Virus record (IMG/VR): IMGVR_UViG_3300045988_109438
Source: a virus
Direction: 5' to 3' (one strand)
DNA: 64,000 bases
A program made the translations under genes and the position numbers. The notes beneath the pieces were generated by a model. The model made no database searches. It was not told where the DNA came from and was given only the letters and a program-made list of their open reading frames with translations. Positions 7-64,000 of this stretch are shown piece by piece; the first letter of the stretch is position 1; every line of letters starts with the position of its first letter.

Positions 7-3000
7 ATGCATGCTCTTGATAAAGTAAGGGAAGATAGGATGAAGGAAGCAGAAGATGATATAAAAGAGTCACCGCTTACGGAGTCTGTATCGGATGAAG
101 ATTATGAGGCTGCTATGGATAATCCTATTATGGTTCCGGCCGTAAGGCAGTCTATAATTGATAAACTATATACAGGTAATGCCGATCTTCTTACTGCGAG
201 AGAAAAAGATGTGTATGATAAATATAAACAAGATTTTGATGATTATGTATCGTCTTTGGGTGACAGTCCTGTTAATCTCATAAAATCATTATCTGAGAAG
301 GCTGATAGGCTTACAAGTCCGAGATCTGTGTATGAGGATAATAAAGCTATTATTGATATGGCTAAATCCAATTTGGAACCAGATCAAAGGAAGGAACTTG
401 ATGATGCTATTTCTTCGTATGTTGATATAATGAACAGACGGGATAAAGGGGAGAAGGTTGACGAAGATGAGCTTGCCGATTCGGTATTTACCATAGAAGA
501 TCTTGGCCAGGTTGGAAACATCACAGATCTCCTTCCTTATATCGAACAAAACAGGATTATTGATAAAGGTCGTATTTCCGAATCTACGTTAAGTAATTTT
601 GGAGAGGATGATGTTAATATAGATTCTCTTGTAAATGAATTAGACGAATCTGACAATACACCGGGAGCTAACATAGATAGCGTCCAGAATCCAGAGACGT
701 TGATGGTAAGAAGAATCTCCAATGACGGCAATGAAAGGTATGAAATTGCAGGTCTTAGAGCTGATAAATTTATATCTTCTATAAAATCATTGGTTCCTAT
801 TCAAATAAGCTCTGAAACGAACGCTAATGGCACTAAAAGGTATTCTCTTAACATAGGTGGAGAAACGGCTACCGTGATAGAACTGCCTTATCATGCGAGA
901 TGGTCTATAGACAAAGAATCGGCTCGTGTTCTTAACCGTTACACAGATGTGTCTATTCAGGACGTGGGTAATTCATATTCTTTGGTTTATAAGCGTCTTG
1001 ATTCAGACGAATTGGTTCCGTACAGAACAGGTGTTGGATTCGGAGAGAATGAAGTAGATAAAATAGATCAGGAAGCATTATCTTCTTTGAAGAAAGGAGA
1101 TAAGGTTAATCTTGAGATAGATGCAAATGATACCTATAATCAGTCTCTTTTTGCCGAATACAATGATGCTGTTCAGTCCGGTGATAAAAAAAGAATAGAA
1201 TCTGCTGAAAATAAGCTGGTATCCAATATGGTTATCAAGGTTATGAGTGGAAACAGATTCGTTTCTGTTGTAAAAGCTGACACAGGAGGCATAGATGGTA
1301 TAAGTAAGATAAGAAGAACGGCTTTTAACAAGTGGAAGAAGGACGCCGGCCGGTCGGCCACCATCAACGTCGGCACGCATGTTGTTGCCCAGACCCTTCC
1401 TGGAAGACCGGTGTTTAACATGAGAGTAAACGGTCAAGGATATGGTCAGGTAGAAAATCTCCCTATTACCGAAAAAGGAGCTGAAAAAGTATCTGATGTC
1501 GGATATGTATTAAATGGCAAAGTCGTGCTTAAGAACGGATCTAAATACACAGGCTTCCCATTTGCTTATTCTATATTAAATGACAAGGGGAATAATTACA
1601 AAAATGTAAGAGTTCCGGTAGTTGTCATCAAAGGCAAAAACGGTCTTAATTATCTTTTTCCGGTTAGTCTACGTTCTGTGGAATCAGAGGAAGGAAAGAA
1701 ATGGATTTCTTTTATAGATATGCTGCTTGAATCAGGTGACTCTGAATTGTTACAGATGGGTCAAGATGATATACAAGATCTTAATGCGTATCTAACCAAG
1801 TTAGGCCTTGATCCGGCTTCGTATCAAGTATCGTATTTGAATCCTATTTCAGGGCTTAGAAAAGCTCGTGAGGCTATAGAAAAATTATCTACGGTTCCTG
1901 ATGTTGTTAAATGGGTAGAAGATGAAAGCAGGAATGTGAAAGACATTGTGATGTCTGAAGTAGAATCTGGAATAGATTTCGAAGGTGAGATGTTTGTCGC
2001 TCCTAAGATCAGGATTCAGTTTGGTAAATCATCTTCCAGACCTAAATCACTTATAGAAGATGATCTCCCTTTCTCCGATGAGGGTAAGACCGTTACTTCC
2101 AAGGAAGATGTGGATATTTACGAAGATGAAATGCCAGAGGAAGACCCTGTCCGGGGGACTCGGCCGGCGCCACCAGCCCAGCCGGCTCCTGCGGCACAAG
2201 CTACGCAGTCCTTACATGGCAAGAAGCGCACCTCCAGAAAAAACTTCTCTCTTATGTTAAACGAAATAGAATCTCATATAGAAAAAGAAGGATTGCCGTC
2301 TTATGCTAATATTTTTGATTTTATAGCAAGGAAGATTGTAGGAGGTGATTTGAGGTTTCTTCGTGAGAGAGGTAATCCTAAAAGCCTTAAGGAAGAAATG
2401 GGATTAGAACCTAAAGGAACAGTAGGTGATAAAATATCCACTCCTTCTAAAAAGGGAGGTAAGACCTTAGAAGAATATGTTTCTTGGCTTCGTTCTCAAA
2501 CAGATCAGGTGGTGGTTGATTATGTTGGTCCAAGATCTGACGAACAAATTATATCAGAGTTGAAAAACTTTTTGAAATATATTAATTTTGTTCCAAGCAA
2601 GGCTTTGAATTATTCTCTTAGAGTCAATGGCATGGATGCCCTAAAAGAATATGGCACAAAAGAGGAAGTAGAAAAAATGGAATCTGATATCAATAGTTTG
2701 GTTTCTAAAGTTTTGCCTACGGTGGATAATAAAACTGTAGAAGATGTTTCTACTGCAATAAAATCAAACAACTTGCCTGCCATATGGGAGCCCGTGGAAA
2801 GCCTTGATATGACAAACGAGGAAAAAATAGAGTTTTTGAATAACGTAGCAGATTTCCTTAGCGGCATACCAGAGTATGATGCTGTCGTGGAGTCTATAGA
2901 GTCAGAATCAGATAATATTTTAAATGATGGAAAAGAAGGAAGTGCAGAAGGCGGTGCAGTACGCACTGAGGAAGATGGCGATAAAAAGGGAGATGGAGAA

Positions 3001-50164: not shown

Positions 50165-50632
50165 TTAATACTGTGAATCATATTTTCTTTCTCTCCCGCT
50201 GTCTTCCCCTATAGGATTATCCCATCCGTATTTTACAGCCGTAGCTTTAAATAGAGGTAGCCCGTAAAATCCATAATCATCCTCATCCCAGTCTTCAAGA
50301 CCTTCTTCCAGGATGTAGTTCCACATCATTACACATTCAAACATTAAACTGGCTGATATTCCTCTCTGATTTAATGCCTTTTCAAAACCGAATCTTACAT
50401 CTTCTTCAAGCTGTTTCAAAACATTCTCCCTGGTAAATTCAACTACAGTACTGTTCCACCTTTCTTCGTTATTGTATTCTTCGTTCGGCTCCATACCGAA
50501 ATCCTTTATCATGTTATATGGGATAAATTTAGCCAGTCTGTTAAAATCTCTACCGTCTAAACATTTTGATTCTAATTCTTTAAGTTGTTCTAATGTTTTC
50601 ATAAGCAATTTTGTTTTATAGGTTAATCCCAT
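50165..50632 (-). CDS. hypothetical acidic protein
   Basis: ORF. Confidence 0.45.
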   Translation of the reverse strand: MGLTYKTKLLMKTLEQLKELESKCLDGRDFNRLAKFIPYNMIKDFGMEPNEEYNNEERWNSTVVEFTRENVLKQLEEDVRFGFEKALNQRGISASLMFECVMMWNYILEEGLEDWDEDDYGFYGLPLFKATAVKYGWDNPIGEDSGRERKYDSQY

Positions 50633-51285
50633 CCTCCAGTAGTGTACAAAGATACATCTTCCTCCTCTACGTTTACACCTTTAATAGCCTGTAGAAGTTT
50701 TTTCTTTGTCTCCCGGCACATATTGTAACCATATCCTTTATACCGATATGAGCGCTCCCATGTACTTACTGGGAAAGGAATATTTTCGTCAATAACCAGC
50801 CTCTTCATATGAAGATGTTCGAAGAATTTCTCATGATAGAGTAGTTTGTACTCGTATGCTACTATACTTGCAGATGAGAATGGAAAATAATCATCTTCCT
50901 TTTCTTCGTATTTAGGCTCCTTATAGTAAGCCATTTTTGCCACAGTAAAGTCAAAGCTCCTAAGAATCTCTTCTGGTTTACCGAACTCTGACTCTATGAA
51001 CTCTACCCATACTTTTTCTCCCTCTTTCTGGAACGCGCATACCTTCTTATTTCTATATTTAAATTTCCATCCTTCTTTCTGATGTTTTTCATCATTGAAC
51101 AAATCAACAGCCTCCTGAAAATCGCTTTCACTTTCAAAGAAAATATCAATGTCTTTTACTCTTTCTCCGGAAAGGATATTTTTAAAACATCCACCAGCTA
51201 TGAATCCTTTGTGGCCTTCCATATACTTGTCAAGCCATCTTATTTGCCAGAAATTATCTGGAGTATCTATTACAAAATTATTCAT
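50623..51285 (-). CDS. nucleotidyltransferase, CCA-adding-enzyme/poly(A)-polymerase head-domain-like (Pol beta superfamily)
   Basis: GFIAGGCFKNILSGERVKDIDIFF (GG...DxD) and LRSFDFTVAKMAY (RDFTxNA-like third carboxylate motif). Confidence 0.6.
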   Translation of the reverse strand: MNNFVIDTPDNFWQIRWLDKYMEGHKGFIAGGCFKNILSGERVKDIDIFFESESDFQEAVDLFNDEKHQKEGWKFKYRNKKVCAFQKEGEKVWVEFIESEFGKPEEILRSFDFTVAKMAYYKEPKYEEKEDDYFPFSSASIVAYEYKLLYHEKFFEHLHMKRLVIDENIPFPVSTWERSYRYKGYGYNMCRETKKKLLQAIKGVNVEEEDVSLYTTGGWD

Positions 51286-56386: not shown

Positions 56387-58939
56387 GTCTTTATATTTTA
56401 AATAGTTCTTAATTTTTCTTCGATAAATGCATCTATTTCATCATAGTATGATCCATCAAAATCACAATTCCCATATTCCTCTGCAAACTCTTTAGCCCAC
56501 CCTTGAATGATGTCAAATGCCTCTTCCCTGCTACATTCTTTTAATCCCGTTTGCTTTAGCTATGGGAGTATGTCAAAGAGTGAATACTATATATCTAACA
56601 CCATAACTGTTATGTTTGTATGATACTAAGAAACCCTCATAACGAGCAAAATCAATTGCTATCTGTTCATGTACCATACGAATCGTGTTACCGTTAGGCG
56701 ATACATCGGTTTCTCGAATATGCTTGTCGCAAATAAAACTTGCATATCCATACGCCTTAATTAGACGAGAGATTTTACTAATAAATTCGTCCTTACTAAA
56801 TGGTGCTTCTTGCGCTATTTCCATACGCAATTTTTCTGCTGCTGTCATAATATTAATTTATTATTCTACATCAATTATTCCATACTCTGCCACTTCCAAC
56901 ACATCCTGTACTATTTCCGGATAGTCAGTTGTATCTAACGAAGCATCTTGTACGTATGCTTCTGCTAATTTCTTGGCTTCTTCAAACGATTCGGCTTGTA
57001 TATATAAGTCAAGCGTCAATGAAAACGGGTATAACATAGCTAATCGGTTATTCTGTAATAATAATCAAGTTCTTCTCCCTTAAAGTTGCTCATGGCATAC
57101 TCGTCAGCTTCTCGCCACAACCGGTCATACAATGCAGCCAGTTCACGATTGCTTTCATAATGCTGCCAGATTTTATGATTCAATACGAGCGTTAATTCCG
57201 TGAAGAACTTATAATCGTCTTTCCATTCATTGAACGCACGTCTGTAGGTATCTTTGACACCTACTATACCATACTTGTCGGCTATACTAAAATCTTCCCA
57301 AAAGGTAGTCAGTAGGTTATAGCCCACTTCTTTCATAAATTCTTTGAATGTCATAAACTATTATTTTAGGTATATAATTATCTTATCTTATCAATGACCT
57401 CTCTCTTGAACTCGTAATATTCATATATGCGACCTTTATAATCAGCCACCATTTCTTAAAATTACTTCTGCTTCTTCTGCGCTGTTAAGTTTTAATTCGT
57501 TTCCCATTTTATGTATTGTTTTCGCCGTTCACTATCTGATTAATGTATGGCCCTGGCCACGAACAGCCAGGCTGGCCTCATGGCAGGACGGGCGCCTCCT
57601 TACCCTGGCTGCTCTGCCCACTCCCTGTATCCTACGTTAAAACCAATAGGATCATACCTTTTGATCATAGTACCATAATTCTCTCTACCGCAATACCTGT
57701 TCTTTCCTCCAATGATCCATGCCTCATCGTCTCTATCTGGAGATATGGAGTTAAGAAACTTCTCATAATCTTTTCTACTCTTTCCCATCTTTGTCTTGAT
57801 TTAAGCAATAGTTAATAAAATAAGCAACCTGTTCATTTTCCCCTGTATTATCAAAATCACCTAAAGTCATATCATCATAGTCCAGCAGAACCATACGAAA
57901 ATCGTTTTTTTTGACATACACCTCCGTTAAAAACATAGGAATCCCAGCAATTTCTATTATCACCGGAAACTGATCATCAAAGTCAAACGCATTATTATCT
58001 TCTCCCCATTTTTTAAATTTTAGCTTTATACTTCCACCATTCTCCACTAATGCCTCTTTGATGTACTTTAATCTTTTTGCATTCAGATCAATCTCTGCTT
58101 TTTCTATTTCTTTGTACAATTCATTCAGATCCATATTCCACTATATTTATATTGTCAAATTTTTCTTTTATAATATCCAAAGCACCGCACTCGTTTGTTA
58201 CCATAACATACTTTCCCGGCTTCATTCCTTTATTCTCCTTATCTTTAAATTGTTATTCCCACAGTATTCCTTCAGCCAACTATCCGTTAGATAACGATTA
58301 ACTCTATCGTATTTCTTTTTCGGACCCTTGCTCCAGAATTTCCATTCGTTTGTGATATTGTACCCATATTTATCAAACCAATAGATATAATACACTACGT
58401 TACCATATAAATCCACTCTTTTTCTTTCCTGTATGACTACCTCATAAGGTATCTCCTTGTCTCTTTTTCCCATCTTTGTCCTCCTTCCTTGAATAAAAAA
58501 AACGGCGCCTATCTTCGCAGACCAGTGCCGGTAACTAACTTACATGGAAAACTACTTAACCTCAACTAATTCTACAGAGCTGTAGAATTTAGTGAAGCTA
58601 CCAACAAATTCTCTTATATTTTTATATTCTTCTGGTCGTTTTCTGTTACCATCTTTTATATAATTCACCCACAGTCTATCCTCTATGTTCTTAATCGCAT
58701 TCTCTATCGTAAATTCGTCGCTGACGCTCATTAAACACGAAGACCCGGTTTTCTTATGTGGTTTATATATCCTTGAAAAAGACCACATTTTTATTCTATC
58801 ATATATATATCCGTTGTTGGGATAAACGAATCCTATCCGGCTGTCACCTTCTTTAGCGTAAAACACACCTGGCTCCTTCCCGCCCTTTCTATATACTACA
58901 AATCCTTTTTCTTTTAGGATATTAACCACTTTATCTAAT

Positions 58940-61425: not shown

Positions 61426-62049
61426 AACTTTTTGTATTTACGTACATTTTTCTTGCCATAGAATCTACACATGGCACGAATCTGACTATAAAATACTTTT
61501 GTCCTCCTGGCCTCAAAGTATTTAAACATTTCTTCATTCTTTGTTTCCCAAACGTAATCCGTTTGGGAACTCATGCGATCTTTCTCCTTGCGTGAATAAT
61601 GGTAATATGATACCACAACACGTTTCATACCATTCTTTACAGGTACGATATTTACGTCTATACTATTCTCTGTCATATTATTATTGTTTTATGCATTATA
61701 CAAATACAAAGAGCGCATACCTTCACAGGCCGGCGCTCCTTTCAATAAAAATGAAAAAACTAATATTACATAAACATATTGTTTTCTACTCTTTATTACA
61801 ATACTTTTGTTCCGCAATTATTATATCTTCCGTACTCTTTTTTCGTATCATTCAAGATTTCAAAAACCATCTTCTTGTGATCTTCGTTTGGTAACCTATC
61901 CTTAACAGCCGATATTACGCCCGCTATAGACGTAAAGCCTGAATCTGTTATTGAACACAGCAACACGCCTCTGTCGGCTCCGGTGCTTATTGCTGACGCC
62001 TTTATAATATCATTCTTATATATTCTCATAACTTTTTTGTTTTATTGTT

Positions 62050-62146
62050 TGTGAGATGCCCAGAATCGAACCAGGACCGGCACATACGCACCGGCACGCC
62101 GCGTCATCCCCCTCTATGATGCAGAAATAGGCATGCCTATCCTCAC
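62050..62146 (-). ncRNA. tRNA-like GC-rich element #1 (97 nt): terminal 7-bp helix GTGAGGA/ATCTCAC, canonical-looking T-arm CCTGG-TTCGATT-CTGGG; not a clean cloverleaf
   Basis: Read on minus strand; intergenic; shares 3' 26 nt with element #2 and CATAGAGGGGGA block with element #3. Confidence 0.35.
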
Positions 62147-63307
62147 GAACCGACATGCCAAAACCCAAAACTTAATTTGATGAATAAAATAGATTAACAA
62201 AAATACTATTCTAATTCTTTTATAATGTCTTTTACGATATTTAGCCTCACCTCCTTCGTTTCTGGACTAATACAGCCAAACCATCCATATATCCTCCATT
62301 CTTCTTCTGGTTCTGTAGCCATACTTTTCTTTTCCTCCAATTCCGGGAAATATGTTTTCACCAGTTCATCTAAATATAACCCATAAATGGATTCTATTTT
62401 TTTAGGAGTACTGAAAAACTTAAATACTATATTTCTCAACATGACGCATATATAATCCCCATTCTCTGACCTTTCGATCTCCTCATATACCTTTTTCCAA
62501 ATGAATAATCGCTCTTCTTTTGTAAACATATCTTTCTTTATTTTTATGGTATTATTTGACTGTATGCAGACTTTTCCATGTACACAACACTATGTTCCCG
62601 TCCAAGTATTTTCTTTGCTGCTTCTTTCTTTATCGCGCAATATCTCCCTGTACGATACGGATTCTTTTGATCTGATCCATCCTCGACTTCGATAATAAAA
62701 CAACCTCCGTCATCTATTATCTTTTTGCAATTGTCACATATTTCTCCCGTGCATATATGATGCGGCGCCTGCCCTTTGATGTTATTCCCTAATAAAGCAA
62801 TCCCCATCTCTTCACCGCATACTATGCATAGTTCTATGGATGGATTCAACCCATGCTCTGGATGCAATACAATACCATCTTTCATTTTCTATCCTCCTTT
62901 ATTAATTCTATTATAAACTTTTTACCTTGTTCCCACAATGGCAGCCCTTCTTTTACTGTGTATGCCACTGTTTCCCTCTCTCCTATTAATCGCACGGCAA
63001 TCTCTCTTGCTTTCAAGTCATCCTCCTCATGCGATTTGTTTATTAAATCATAGGCACATGATTCCACCTTTTGCCTTTCGATTATTATCGAACCCATTAA
63101 CTCGCTTATATGCGATCCTAAAAACGATAAGACATTAATAGCTTTCCCAATATCATTTGAAATAGCACTTGCTAAATACATCTTATCCATATACTCCGGC
63201 AAAGCCTCGTATGCCGTTTCTATGTTTTTATACTGATTTTCGTTTACCTCCCTTTTAATCAGTTCTTCAAATTCTTCTTTTAACATGTTCTTCCCTATTT
63301 TAATGTT

Positions 63308-63395
63308 GTGTGAGATCGCCGGAATCGAACCAGCCTACCGCACCATGAATCCCATAAAGCAAATGATCCGATCTTCGCAGACGGGGGCATTCTGT
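63308..63395 (-). ncRNA. tRNA-like GC-rich element #2: T-arm GCTGG-TTCGATT-CCGGC followed by GATCTCAC(ACA); 5' partner imperfect
   Basis: Intergenic; 12-nt identity GAATCGAACCAG (plus strand) with element #1. Confidence 0.3.
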
Positions 63396-63563
63396 CTAAA
63401 GCATAAGAAAATTAATGAAGAAATTTTTCTCACTTACACCATAGCATCTAAAATAGCTATCAGCACTATTTCTATGACAAACATAATAGAAAATATCTTA
63501 AATGCCTTTTTCATATCGCTATCTCCTCCTTTTTATTTTTTTTAGTTCCACAATAAACTGTTC

Positions 63564-63662
63564 CGGCTCTGCTCCGAACTACGTTCCACCTACAACCGCA
63601 GGCCTTAGCCCAAGGCGCCGCCTACTCCCCCTCTATGGCAGCCTGTTCGTACCTACAAAGCC
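63564..63662 (-). ncRNA. GC-rich structured element #3 (99 nt): 7-bp terminal helix GGCTTTG/CAGAGCC, U8-A9, D-arm-like GGTA/TGCC, conserved CATAGAGGGGGA block
   Basis: Intergenic/overlapping 3' end of 63622..63882; shares 12-nt TCCCCCTCTATG (plus strand) with element #1. Confidence 0.3.
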
Positions 63663-63882
63663 AGTCTCCATCTACACAACTAACACTACGCGATAATAAA
63701 CATTTATTCTTATAACAATCATTAAAAATACACCCCTCACAACTGTAATCCTTAACTTCTACACAGCTAACTACCTTAGCATATACTATACCATCACTAC
63801 CTTCTATTCCTTTCACCCCAAAAATAGAACCTTCTTCCTCCTTACTCAAATCTAAGTCAGGCGCAAAATCATATACGTTCAT
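63622..63882 (-). CDS. small Cys-rich protein with CEGCIFND motif (paralog of 37530..37739)
   Basis: Shared motif. Confidence 0.45.
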   Translation of the reverse strand: MNVYDFAPDLDLSKEEEGSIFGVKGIEGSDGIVYAKVVSCVEVKDYSCEGCIFNDCYKNKCLLSRSVSCVDGDWLCRYEQAAIEGE

Positions 63883-64000
63883 GTTGTTTATATTTTAATT
63901 GTTAAACATTTCACTTACTACCAGCCTATGGAATGATGTTTTAAAACGCTATCATACTTTATTTTGTTGGAAAACCTACAGAATACTGTTTTAAAACGCT

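What the first reader, a model, noticed from the sequence alone, without database searches (positions are those of the whole stretch)
62050..63662. Family of GC-rich intergenic elements with tRNA-like T-arm and acceptor-like termini that do not fold as canonical tRNAs
Three ~90-100-nt GC-rich islands sit between minus-strand genes in an otherwise AT-rich region. #1 and #2 share a near-identical 26-nt 3' block on the minus strand (GG-TTCGATTC-[CT]GG[GC]-[CG]ATCTCACA), i.e. a textbook T-stem/T-loop plus 3' acceptor strand. #1 and #3 share a 12-nt block (CATAGAGGGGGA on minus) at equivalent positions plus GCGGCG, and each has a 7-bp terminal helix; #3 also has U8-A9 and a GGTA/TGCC D-arm-like pair. 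None gives a clean anticodon arm by eye, and the 5' acceptor strands of #1/#2 need bulges. They could be unusual phage tRNAs or suppressors, decayed pseudo-tRNAs, att-like remnants (a phage attP typically carries a tRNA 3' end), or a novel structured ncRNA. A related GC-rich hairpin (CCTGGC-TGTTCGTG-GCCAGG on minus) occurs at 57540..57620. None encodes CCA, and a CCA-adding-enzyme-like gene is present at 50623..51285.
Basis: seen in the sequence. Interest (0 to 1): 0.65.

Follow-up and report, generated by a model that had tools for sequence, protein, structure and literature searches.

The report
tRNA-derived modules between phage early genes
Two of the three GC-rich spacers end in a conserved hairpin copied from the T-arm of a tRNA; they are not tRNA genes but selected tRNA-derived RNA modules in the early operon of an epsilon crAss-like gut phage, most plausibly RNA-processing signals, which is untested.

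Summary
The sequence observations hold. The window is 93% identical to the right end of epsilon crAss-like phage crAssE-Sib, and the islands recur in more than 190 related gut-phage contigs. None is a tRNA gene: ARAGORN and Rfam find nothing, although the lineage's six real tRNAs are found. The T-arm hairpin is real: 98.5% of cells pair, four of five pairs change on both sides, and the loop varies only at positions 59/60. Its many G-U pairs work only on the gene-sense strand, so it acts as RNA. A third copy just outside the window (el0) descends from the phage's own tRNA-Cys, keeps acceptor stem and T-arm, and has a scrambled anticodon region; #1 is homologous to it with a 52-nt insertion. These spacers vary less than codon positions 1 and 2. 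Best reading: tRNA "top-half" mimics, like plant-mitochondrial t-elements, that direct RNase P/Z cleavage of early transcripts. That function is inferred.

The parts
62059..62075 (-). el1 T-arm hairpin CCUGG-UUCGAUU-CUGGG
   Evidence: Stem covaries across copies and relatives and the loop is invariant. Its two G-U pairs work only on the minus-strand RNA.
62050..62058 (-). el1 acceptor-3'-like tail CAUCUCACA
   Evidence: Nearly invariant in 179 instances. Can pair 5 of 7 with UGGGUUU at 62161-62167, the position homologous to the el0 acceptor 5' strand. No covariation was seen.
62030..62049 (-). A/C-rich leader without a Shine-Dalgarno sequence (AACAAUAAAAC...) running to the ATG of ORF 61796-62029; gene-cassette breakpoint
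   Evidence: Different genes follow this point in different phages. The same leader type follows el0 and the 57.5-kb hairpin.
62076..62095 (-). el1 hairpin H3 GCCGGUGC-GUAU-GUGCCGGU, part of a 52-nt insertion relative to el0
   Evidence: Changes are mostly G-C/G-U/A-U transitions that keep pairing; 3 of 41 gap-free variants have a C-A mismatch at one pair, and two variants lack the hairpin altogether. It lies at the variable-arm position in the alignment with el0.
62105..62121 (-). el1 hairpin H2 CAUC-AUAGAGGGG-GAUG, carrying the 12-mer shared with #3
   Evidence: The length of the G-run varies between contigs.
62130..62159 (-). el1 hairpin S1 GGCAUGUC...GGCAUGCC (8 bp), homologous to the central arm of el0
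   Evidence: Of five variant types in the stem, four keep pairing and one unique sequence (1 of 43) breaks the terminal pair (G-C to A-C). Diversity pi = 0.010. Homology to el0 is shown.
62160..62205 (-). Nearly invariant AU-rich 5' flank of el1, including UGGGUUU, the candidate acceptor 5' strand
   Evidence: pi = 0.005, the lowest in the region.
63318..63334 (-). el2 T-arm hairpin GCUGG-UUCGAUU-CCGGC
   Evidence: A G-C to A-U double change is seen in L116.
63309..63317 (-). el2 acceptor-3'-like tail GAUCUCACA
   Evidence: Unchanged in 185 of 190 instances. Complementary over 6 bp to GUGAGA at 63428-63433, but without covariation.
63287..63308 (-). Leader running to the ATG of ORF 62882-63286; cassette breakpoint after ...CAUUAAAA
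   Evidence: The 134-aa gene is present or absent exactly at this point.
63354..63392 (-). el2 hairpin P1 (9 bp, C-C mismatch, 4 bp, GCGA loop) plus U-rich tract; terminator-like
   Evidence: Compensatory pairs A-U/G-C (27/16), U-A/C-G (43/5) and C-G/A-U. Its core 12-mer recurs in a canonical terminator at 58495-58531. The window's own copy has two pair-breaking changes.
63393..63433 (-). Invariant AU-rich stretch starting at GUGAGA, which overlaps the end of the peptide ORF
63434..63514 (-). 26-aa hydrophobic ORF (MKKAFKIFSIMFVIEIVLIAILDAMV) between #3 and #2
   Evidence: Conservation is the same at all three codon positions.
63558..63656 (-). #3 (el3) conserved structured core with three hairpins; no T-arm; overlaps the last 12 codons of ORF 63622-63882
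   Evidence: Almost invariant in 73 unique variants, while the upstream coding sequence varies. pi = 0.015.

Best explanation
The T-arm-bearing spacers (#1 and #2 in the window, plus a third copy, el0, about 1.9 kb upstream and outside the window) are tRNA-derived RNA modules. They are transcribed as part of the sense-strand early transcripts of an epsilon crAss-like phage. Selection has kept the 'top half' of a tRNA: a T-arm with a canonical T-loop and an acceptor-like 3' strand with no encoded CCA. The D-arm and anticodon half has been lost, scrambled or replaced by extra hairpins. The most likely function is that of plant-mitochondrial t-elements or the MALAT1 mascRNA. In that model the mimic is recognised by the tRNA-maturation enzymes: RNase P at its 5' side, RNase Z after the discriminator base, and possibly the CCA-adding enzyme, TruB and TrmA. 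The long early transcript would then be cut at gene boundaries, releasing downstream mRNAs with short A/C-rich leaders that lack a Shine-Dalgarno sequence, and possibly a small stable tRNA-like RNA. Shown: the elements are real, conserved, of tRNA descent, fold on the RNA sense strand, and are not tRNA genes. Inferred: transcription, cleavage, and the enzymes involved. #3 is a separate conserved structured element of unknown role. The 5' half of #2 is a terminator-type hairpin.
For: T-arm: 27 distinct variants from three paralogous sites give 98.5% of cells paired, 4 of 5 pairs with changes on both sides, and 0 of 500 shuffles reaching the covariation score. Loop positions 54-58 are fixed, apart from one variant among about 50 el0 instances that reads C at position 55; otherwise only 59/60 vary, as in real tRNAs. 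28 of 135 stem cells are G-U, which would be A-C mismatches on the other strand, so the fold belongs to the sense RNA. tRNA descent: el0 keeps the acceptor strands of the phage's tRNA-Cys with one base pair deleted from both strands (GGCUUGU/ACAAGCC becomes GGUUGU/GCAACC), the discriminator U and the trailer CUAAA. ARAGORN calls el0 and #1 only at a relaxed threshold. The el0 anticodon-arm region is hypervariable without compensation, while acceptor and T-arm are fixed. #1 aligns with el0 across both halves, with a 52-nt insertion at the variable-arm position. Selection: diversity is 0.005-0.015 in the spacers, against 0.015-0.035 at codon positions 1/2 and 0.05-0.09 at position 3. In 73-80 loci chosen through a neighbouring protein, not through the motif, T-arm and tail are nearly invariant. 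Position: each module ends 20-37 nt before a start codon and directly after a stop codon or hairpin. All six real tRNAs of the lineage also lack encoded CCA, and the phage carries a nucleotidyltransferase-like gene. Precedent: t-elements were found through the same GGTTCRANYCC motif and mark mRNA ends cut by RNase P/Z (PMC1920247). The crAss-like phage phi14:2 makes abundant early non-coding RNA from intergenic regions.
Against: There are no transcript or cleavage data. The acceptor-like closing helix is weak in #1 (5 of 7 pairs) and distant in #2 (125 nt). It shows no covariation: variants that lose GUGAG or change CUCAC are not compensated. P1 in #2 looks like a terminator placed upstream of the T-arm, so the module might be transcribed little unless there is read-through. 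The modules are confined to one tight clade: the only more distant relative examined (57% protein identity, L125) lacks them, and crAssE-Sib is the only matching record among 50,697 GenBank phage records. Folding energies are not exceptional.
Confidence: 0.38

Rival explanations
1. The modules are stand-alone small tRNA-like non-coding RNAs. They would work in trans, for example as partners or substrates of the phage's own RNA-handling proteins (Ro60-related Rsr, polynucleotide kinase/phosphatase, nucleotidyltransferase), or as decoys for host enzymes or defences that bind tRNA.
For: crAssE-Sib encodes Rsr, a polynucleotide kinase/phosphatase and a putative polyA/CCA-adding enzyme. Bacterial Y RNAs mimic tRNA, and YrlB also has a possible T-arm (PMC4201824). 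Whole spacers, not only the T-arm, are conserved. The hypervariable el0 'anticodon' region could reflect an arms race.
Against: No Rfam YrlA hit in any element, even at E<=10. No GNCGAAN0-1G motif, although the motif is also absent from the phage's own YrlA-like candidate, so this is weak evidence. The arm order is tRNA-like, not YrlA-like. A separate YrlA-like candidate already sits next to rsr, about 75 kb away. No promoter or terminator delimits a small RNA.
Confidence: 0.2
2. The modules are recombination by-products. Duplicated 3' ends of phage tRNA genes mark the junctions of shuffled gene cassettes, and the shared block persists as a recombination hot spot rather than for an RNA function.
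For: The two blocks are direct repeats flanking a 1.25-kb segment of variable gene content. Insertions and deletions of whole genes occur right after the tail. el0 copies the tRNA-Cys trailer, which points to duplication at the DNA level.
Against: Stem covariation with an invariant T-loop across paralogues, and variation only at positions 59/60, point to selection on an RNA fold. Conservation exceeds that of coding positions. Breakpoints lie in the A-rich leader 12-15 nt after the block, with only 8-nt microhomology. No integrase is nearby, and no host tRNA carries this 3' end.
Confidence: 0.15
3. The hairpins are transcription or regulatory signals, such as terminators, anti-terminators, binding sites for a phage or host protein, or promoters for the virion RNA polymerase. 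On this view the resemblance to a T-arm is inherited but functionally incidental.
For: Hairpins with U-rich tails (P1, S1) precede the modules, giving a terminator-then-restart layout. Early transcription in crAss-like phages uses a virion RNA polymerase whose promoters are unknown. The AU-rich flanks are nearly invariant.
Against: The block occurs only twice in the 151-kb relative. No U-tract follows the T-arm. The G-U pairs exclude a template-strand DNA hairpin of the N4 type. The sigma-70 and terminator scans are at background level.
Confidence: 0.12
4. They are functional but unusual decoding tRNAs, for example suppressors.
For: A T-arm plus an acceptor-like tail. ARAGORN at an 80% threshold reports 'tRNA-Ile(gat)' for el0 and 'tRNA-?' for #1.
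Against: No call at default settings in the window or in about 120 loci where the real tRNAs are found. No Rfam tRNA hit. tRNAscan-SE found only six tRNAs in crAssE-Sib (PMC11054128). There is no U33, no D-arm and no 7-nt anticodon loop, and the el0 anticodon region varies freely. Long ORFs read normally in genetic code 11.
Confidence: 0.02

Closest known systems
Plant-mitochondrial t-elements (tRNA-like processing signals; Forner et al. 2007, PMC1920247)
   Same: Non-canonical tRNA-like structures that retain the GGTTCRANYCC T-arm motif and an acceptor-like stem. They lie at mRNA boundaries, derive from tRNA genes, and encode no CCA.
   Different: For t-elements, cleavage by RNase P/Z has been mapped experimentally; here it is inferred. 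These elements are in a phage early operon. #1 carries two extra hairpins, #2 is fused to a terminator-like hairpin, and the closing helices are weaker.
MALAT1 mascRNA / MEN-beta tRNA-like 3'-end modules (from my own knowledge)
   Same: An element of about 61 nt with a tRNA-like top half and a degenerate anticodon arm, lying at the end of a long structured non-coding region. el0 follows a ~550-nt structured spacer.
   Different: Those are eukaryotic nuclear RNAs. There is no sequence relationship, and processing is untested here.
YrlA/YrlB bacterial and phage Y RNAs (Rfam RF02553; PMC4201824)
   Same: tRNA mimics with a T-arm, found in genomes that encode Ro60/Rsr, as this phage lineage does.
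   Different: There is no RF02553 hit, the arm order differs, the elements are not adjacent to rsr, and no Rsr-binding motif is present. A separate YrlA-like candidate lies beside rsr.
Canonical phage tRNA genes (for example the Met-Gln-Arg-Cys cluster of the same phage)
   Same: Same T-loop sequence (UUCGAUU, as in tRNA-Cys and tRNA-Arg), no encoded CCA, and el0 shares the tRNA-Cys acceptor and trailer.
   Different: No D-arm, no anticodon arm, and not detected by tRNA finders.

Membership tests
Canonical tRNA gene | Detected by tRNA finders or the Rfam RF00005 model | tested here: not met
   ARAGORN finds 0 in the window and none at these sites in about 120 loci, where it does find the Met/Gln/Arg/Cys cluster. 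Rfam finds nothing at gathering score or at E<=10. tRNAscan-SE on crAssE-Sib reports six tRNAs only (PMC11054128).
Canonical tRNA gene | 5-bp T-stem with a 7-nt T-loop U54 U55 C56 R57 A58 | tested here: met
   98.5% of cells paired and 4 of 5 pairs covary. With one exception among about 50 el0 instances (C at position 55), the loop varies only at positions 59/60.
Canonical tRNA gene | 7-bp acceptor stem joining the 5' and 3' ends | tested here: inconclusive
   el0 has 6-7 bp, inherited from tRNA-Cys with a co-deleted pair. #1 pairs at 5 of 7 positions. #2 has 6 bp but 125 nt away. There is no covariation, and uncompensated variants exist.
Canonical tRNA gene | D-arm, and an anticodon arm with a 7-nt loop and U33 | tested here: not met
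   el0 lacks U33 and its anticodon-stem 5' strand varies without compensation. #1 and #2 have no such arm.
t-element-like tRNA mimic used as an RNA-processing signal | GGTTCRANYCC motif within a non-canonical tRNA-like fold | tested here: met
   el2 and el0 read GGTTCGATTCC. el1 reads GGTTCGATTCT, one mismatch, and CC in some variants.
t-element-like tRNA mimic used as an RNA-processing signal | Located at boundaries between coding units on the sense strand | tested here: met
   Each module ends 20-37 nt upstream of a start codon and follows a stop codon or hairpin. The G-U pairs fix the strand.
t-element-like tRNA mimic used as an RNA-processing signal | Transcript ends coincide with the element ends; cleavage by RNase P/RNase Z | not testable with these tools
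   No transcriptome or biochemical data are available.
YrlA / Y RNA | RF02553 match, adjacency to rsr, and the Rsr-binding motif GNCGAAN0-1G | tested here: not met
   No hit in the elements. No motif, though the motif is also absent from the YrlA-like candidate itself. rsr lies about 75 kb away, with its own YrlA-like candidate beside it (28.5 bits, below the gathering score of 69).
attP / duplicated 3' end of a host tRNA | Identity to the 3' end of a host tRNA gene, with an integrase nearby | tested here: not met
   The genome-contig scan gave 2 hits, neither a tRNA: one chance match in a coding sequence and one contig of the phage itself. No integrase is annotated in the region.
tmRNA (standard or permuted) | Detection by ARAGORN or Rfam tmRNA models | tested here: not met
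   The only trace is a 9.9-bit T-arm fragment match at E=4.5.
Intrinsic terminator (hairpin P1 of #2 only) | GC-rich hairpin followed by a U-tract | tested here: inconclusive
   The covarying hairpin is followed by AUUUGCUUUAU. It is a paralogue of the canonical terminator at 58495-58531. The simple scan did not call it on the minus strand.

The most novel reading that the evidence does not exclude
An epsilon crAss-like phage uses tRNA-derived 'top-half' mimics to punctuate its early transcripts, as mitochondria do with tRNAs. Host RNase P and RNase Z would cut the early RNA at these modules, yielding mRNAs that lack a Shine-Dalgarno sequence and small tRNA-like RNAs. Those small RNAs might be extended with CCA by the phage's own nucleotidyltransferase and handled by its Rsr/Y-RNA system. 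To my knowledge this would be the first t-element-type processing system described in a bacteriophage.
Probability: 0.25. Interest if true: 0.7.

Novelty: new variant of a known kind. Interest (0 to 1): 0.45.

Why it matters
Epsilon crAss-like phages are abundant in the human gut, and their early gene expression is unknown. If these modules are processing signals, they would show how a phage borrows the host's tRNA-maturation enzymes to organise early mRNAs. They would also give a sequence handle (GGTTCGATTC plus tail) for finding such sites in metatranscriptomes. For annotation, the result shows that these spacers are selected RNA elements, not tRNA genes or junk, and that at least one ORF annotated in the relative (crAssE-Sib CDS 556..843) probably lies inside a structured non-coding region.

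Tried and rejected
1. Rfam at gathering score and at E<=10 on the window, on the crAssE-Sib left end and on its right end gave nothing relevant.
2. Host-tRNA/att idea: a scan of 185,579 species genomes found no tRNA with this 3' end.
3. Genome-wide promoter idea: the block occurs only twice in 151 kb.
4. N4-type template-strand DNA hairpin promoter: rejected, because the G-U pairs fit only the sense strand.
5. GUGAG/CUCAC as the acceptor stem: no covariation, and variants are uncompensated.
6. A D-arm-like hairpin formed by the 14-nt palindrome ATAGGCATGCCTAT: one variant breaks it while fitting S1, so S1 is preferred.
7. Y-RNA membership: no motif and no model hit.
8. Distant homologues for covariation. 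Neighbours of the 113-aa ORF gave one distant phage (L125, 24% GC) without such elements. The profile-based locus search returned only relatives at 93% identity or more.
9. Sigma-70 promoter and terminator scans were at background level.
10. The 2140-aa ORF had no sequence match to any solved structure. Its identity as the virion RNA polymerase rests on the published HHpred result for crAssE-Sib.
11. ARAGORN in mitochondrial mode, which allows tRNAs without a D-arm, gave only noise.
Full report
**What the window is.** The minus strand of 56-64 kb carries a run of small ORFs. The stretch 61800-64000 is 93% identical to the right end of phage crAssE-Sib (OR575929, 151 kb, human gut). That phage is a published epsilon crAss-like phage (Epsilonunovirus) with a phi14:2-like virion RNA polymerase. 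Related prophage-like sequences occur in Parabacteroides, and tRNAscan-SE reported six tRNAs (PMC11054128). The region of the finding is the start of the leftward early-type gene block next to the genome end.

**Checking the observation.**
- The three GC-rich islands are real.
- The 23-nt block GGTTCGATTCYGGSSATYTCACA occurs twice, at 62050-62072 and 63309-63331, against 0.01 expected.
- CATAGAGGGGGA occurs at 62107-62118 and 63626-63637.
- ARAGORN finds no tRNA or tmRNA in the 64 kb.
- Rfam finds nothing at gathering score, nor at E<=10 in 57-64 kb.
- Single-sequence folding energies are no better than shuffled controls.

**Conservation.**
- The block was found in more than 118 IMG/VR contigs of 80-250 kb, usually as two copies 850-1250 nt apart.
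- Eighty further loci, selected through the neighbouring 113-aa protein and so not biased towards the motif, carry the same elements.
- In those loci the T-arm, the tail, the AU-rich flanks and the core of #3 are almost invariant, while the flanking ORFs vary.
- Nucleotide diversity is 0.005-0.015 in the spacers, 0.015-0.035 at codon positions 1/2 and 0.05-0.09 at position 3.
- The spacers are therefore under purifying selection and are not decaying.

**Anatomy of #2 (63287-63433).**
- GAAUGCUCC-C-AUCU-GCGA-AGAU-C-GGAGCAUUU is a long hairpin with a GNRA loop.
- It has three pairs with changes on both sides: A-U/G-C in 27/16 sequences, U-A/C-G in 43/5, and C-G/A-U in 48/1.
- It is followed by UUUGCUUUAU.
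- Its core 12-mer recurs in a textbook terminator at 58495-58531, which has a T8 tail, and in a terminator of a distant phage.
- The window's own copy has two pair-breaking substitutions.
- After a polymorphic linker come the T-arm (63318-63334), the tail GAUCUCACA, and an A/C-rich leader.

**Anatomy of #1 (62030-62205).**
- It begins with an invariant AU-rich flank.
- Next is hairpin S1 (GGCAUGUC/GGCAUGCC). Four of the five variant types in its stem keep pairing; one unique sequence breaks the terminal pair.
- Then come H2 (CAUC-AUAGAGGGG-GAUG) and H3 (GCCGGUGC-GUAU-GUGCCGGU).
- It ends with the T-arm (62059-62075), the tail CAUCUCACA and a leader.

**Anatomy of #3 (63558-63656).**
- #3 has three hairpins and no T-arm.
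- It overlaps the last codons of ORF 63622-63882.
- It shares with #1 only the loop motif and GCGGCG.
- Its long terminal helix is only partly maintained, and the CGAAC/GUUCG helix is peculiar to this window.
- The hairpin at 57549-57577 has no T-loop and is far more variable.

**The T-arm is a real, selected hairpin.**
- Twenty-seven distinct variants from three paralogous sites give 98.5% of cells paired.
- Four of the five pairs have changes on both sides: U-A/C-G/G-C, C-G/U-A (two pairs) and G-C/A-U.
- None of 500 shuffles reaches the covariation score, and sliding the register destroys the signal.
- Loop positions 54-58 (UUCGA) are fixed apart from one rare variant, and otherwise only 59/60 vary, which is the tRNA rule.
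- 28 of 135 stem cells are G-U, which would be A-C mismatches on the other strand. The structure therefore belongs to the sense-strand RNA, not to a template-strand DNA hairpin.

**tRNA descent.**
- The whole crAssE-Sib genome has only two copies of the block, but it has a third T-loop element, el0, at 576..506.
- Contigs L127 and L128 show that el0 lies 1.9 kb upstream of #2 on the same strand, just beyond the window end.
- el0 matches the phage's own tRNA-Cys. The acceptor strands are GGUUGU/GCAACC against GGCUUGU/ACAAGCC, that is, one base pair deleted from both strands. It also has the same T-loop, discriminator U and 3' trailer CUAAA.
- ARAGORN calls el0 ('tRNA-Ile', without U33) and #1 ('tRNA-?') only at an 80% threshold.
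- Across 35 unique el0 variants the acceptor and T-arm are fixed or compensated, whereas the anticodon-arm region is hypervariable without compensation.
- #1 aligns with el0 over both halves (UUGGnUUnUnGCAU..., UUCGUnnAGGAUAGGnAUGC, T-arm, GCAnC), with a 52-nt insertion (H2 and H3) at the variable-arm position.
- In the homologous place #1 offers UGGGUUU opposite CAUCUCA (5 of 7 pairs). #2 offers GUGAGA opposite UCUCAC (6 bp), but 125 nt away.
- Neither helix shows covariation, and a few variants break them without compensation. I treat these closing helices as plausible, not shown.

**Rivals tested.**
- Host-tRNA/att remnant: no tRNA in 185,579 species genomes carries this 3' end. The two hits are a chance match in a coding sequence and a copy of the phage itself binned into a Veillonella MAG.
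- Y RNA: the lineage encodes Ro60-related Rsr, but a separate sub-threshold YrlA candidate (28.5 bits) sits beside rsr with tRNA-Tyr and tRNA-Lys. The elements themselves have no YrlA hit, a different arm order and no GNCGAAN0-1G motif.
- Promoter: there are only two copies per genome, and the strand argument excludes an N4-type hairpin.
- Decoding tRNA: excluded, as above.
- Recombination scar: whole genes are gained or lost directly after the tail/leader, so the modules do sit at cassette junctions. Covariation and strong conservation argue that this is not their only reason for existing.

**Most likely mechanism (inferred).** What selection preserves is the part of a tRNA read by RNase P, RNase Z, the CCA-adding enzyme and TruB/TrmA. 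The modules sit at gene boundaries 20-37 nt before start codons, several of which lack a Shine-Dalgarno sequence and instead have the recurrent AAACAAUA-type leader. All six real tRNAs of the phage also lack an encoded CCA, so the RNase Z and CCA pathway must operate during infection. A nucleotidyltransferase-like gene is present.

This is the layout of plant-mitochondrial t-elements, which were discovered through the same GGTTCRANYCC motif and define mRNA ends through RNase P/Z (PMC1920247). crAss-like phage phi14:2 also accumulates early non-coding RNA from intergenic regions.

I give this mechanism about 0.38. The descriptive claim, that these are tRNA-derived, selected, sense-strand RNA modules and not tRNA genes, I hold at about 0.85.

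**Weak points.** There are no expression data, and the closing helices are weak. A terminator-like hairpin lies upstream of the T-arm in #2. The modules are restricted to one tight clade: they are absent from L125, the one more distant relative examined (57% protein identity), and crAssE-Sib is the only GenBank phage record that matches.

**Verdict.** The finding is real and partly correctly interpreted. It is a new variant of a known kind (tRNA-like cis elements and mimics) in an understudied and abundant phage group. Interest is moderate.

Noticed in passing
window 63434-63514 (-): A 26-aa hydrophobic ORF (MKKAFKIFSIMFVIEIVLIAILDAMV) with a strong Shine-Dalgarno sequence lies between #3 and #2. 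All three codon positions are equally conserved. It could be a small membrane peptide or a type-I-toxin-like gene with structured untranslated regions.
   Followed up: partly
window 58495-58531 (-); L125:2650-2700: A canonical terminator whose hairpin core GTCTGCGAAGAT is identical to that of the #2 hairpin. A GTCTGTGAAGAT version sits in a terminator of a distant 24%-GC phage.
   Followed up: partly
window 63937-64000 (-); L001:660-800: Tandem repeats of about 50 nt starting AGCGTTTTAAAACA lie upstream of the first early ORF, at the edge of an ~850-nt repeat-rich non-coding region next to the genome end. They are candidate early promoters or operators.
   Followed up: no
L122:500-1040 (-) (crAssE-Sib left end; outside the window): A non-coding region of about 550 nt ends in el0 and contains a stem with two compensatory changes (AGUACG/CGUACU to AUCACG/CGUGAU). 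The annotated CDS 556..843 inside it is not called in related contigs. This may be a large structured RNA with a tRNA-like 3' module.
   Followed up: partly
L123:22601-22705 (crAssE-Sib 72601-72705; outside the window): A sub-threshold YrlA (Y RNA-like) match of 28.5 bits, E=0.006, lies directly upstream of tRNA-Tyr, tRNA-Lys and a Ro60-related (Rsr) gene.
   Followed up: partly
window 62030-62049, 61677-61700, 63883-63900, 57440-57470 (-): Several early ORFs are preceded by A/C-rich leaders of the AAACAAUA type with no Shine-Dalgarno sequence, while neighbouring ORFs have strong AGGAGG. The operon therefore has two kinds of translation start region.
   Followed up: no
window 62107-62118 and 63626-63637 (-): The G-run in CATAGAGGGGGA varies from G3 to G8 between contigs. 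In #3 it lies in the last codons of ORF 63622-63882, so its length changes the C-terminus and the stop codon.
   Followed up: no
window 63622-63882 (-) and L001:2711-3136: ORF86 has a longer paralogue that is inserted directly after #1 in crAssE-Sib. ORF86 appears truncated where #3 begins, which suggests that #3 was inserted into, or replaced, the 3' part of such a gene.
   Followed up: no
L121 (NZ_DXLG01000138.1): A 3.9-kb contig binned into a Veillonella MAG is a fragment of this phage. This is probably a binning artefact, since published data point to Parabacteroides as host.
   Followed up: no
window 62127-62140: A perfect 14-nt palindrome, ATAGGCATGCCTAT, lies inside hairpin S1 of #1.
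   Followed up: partly
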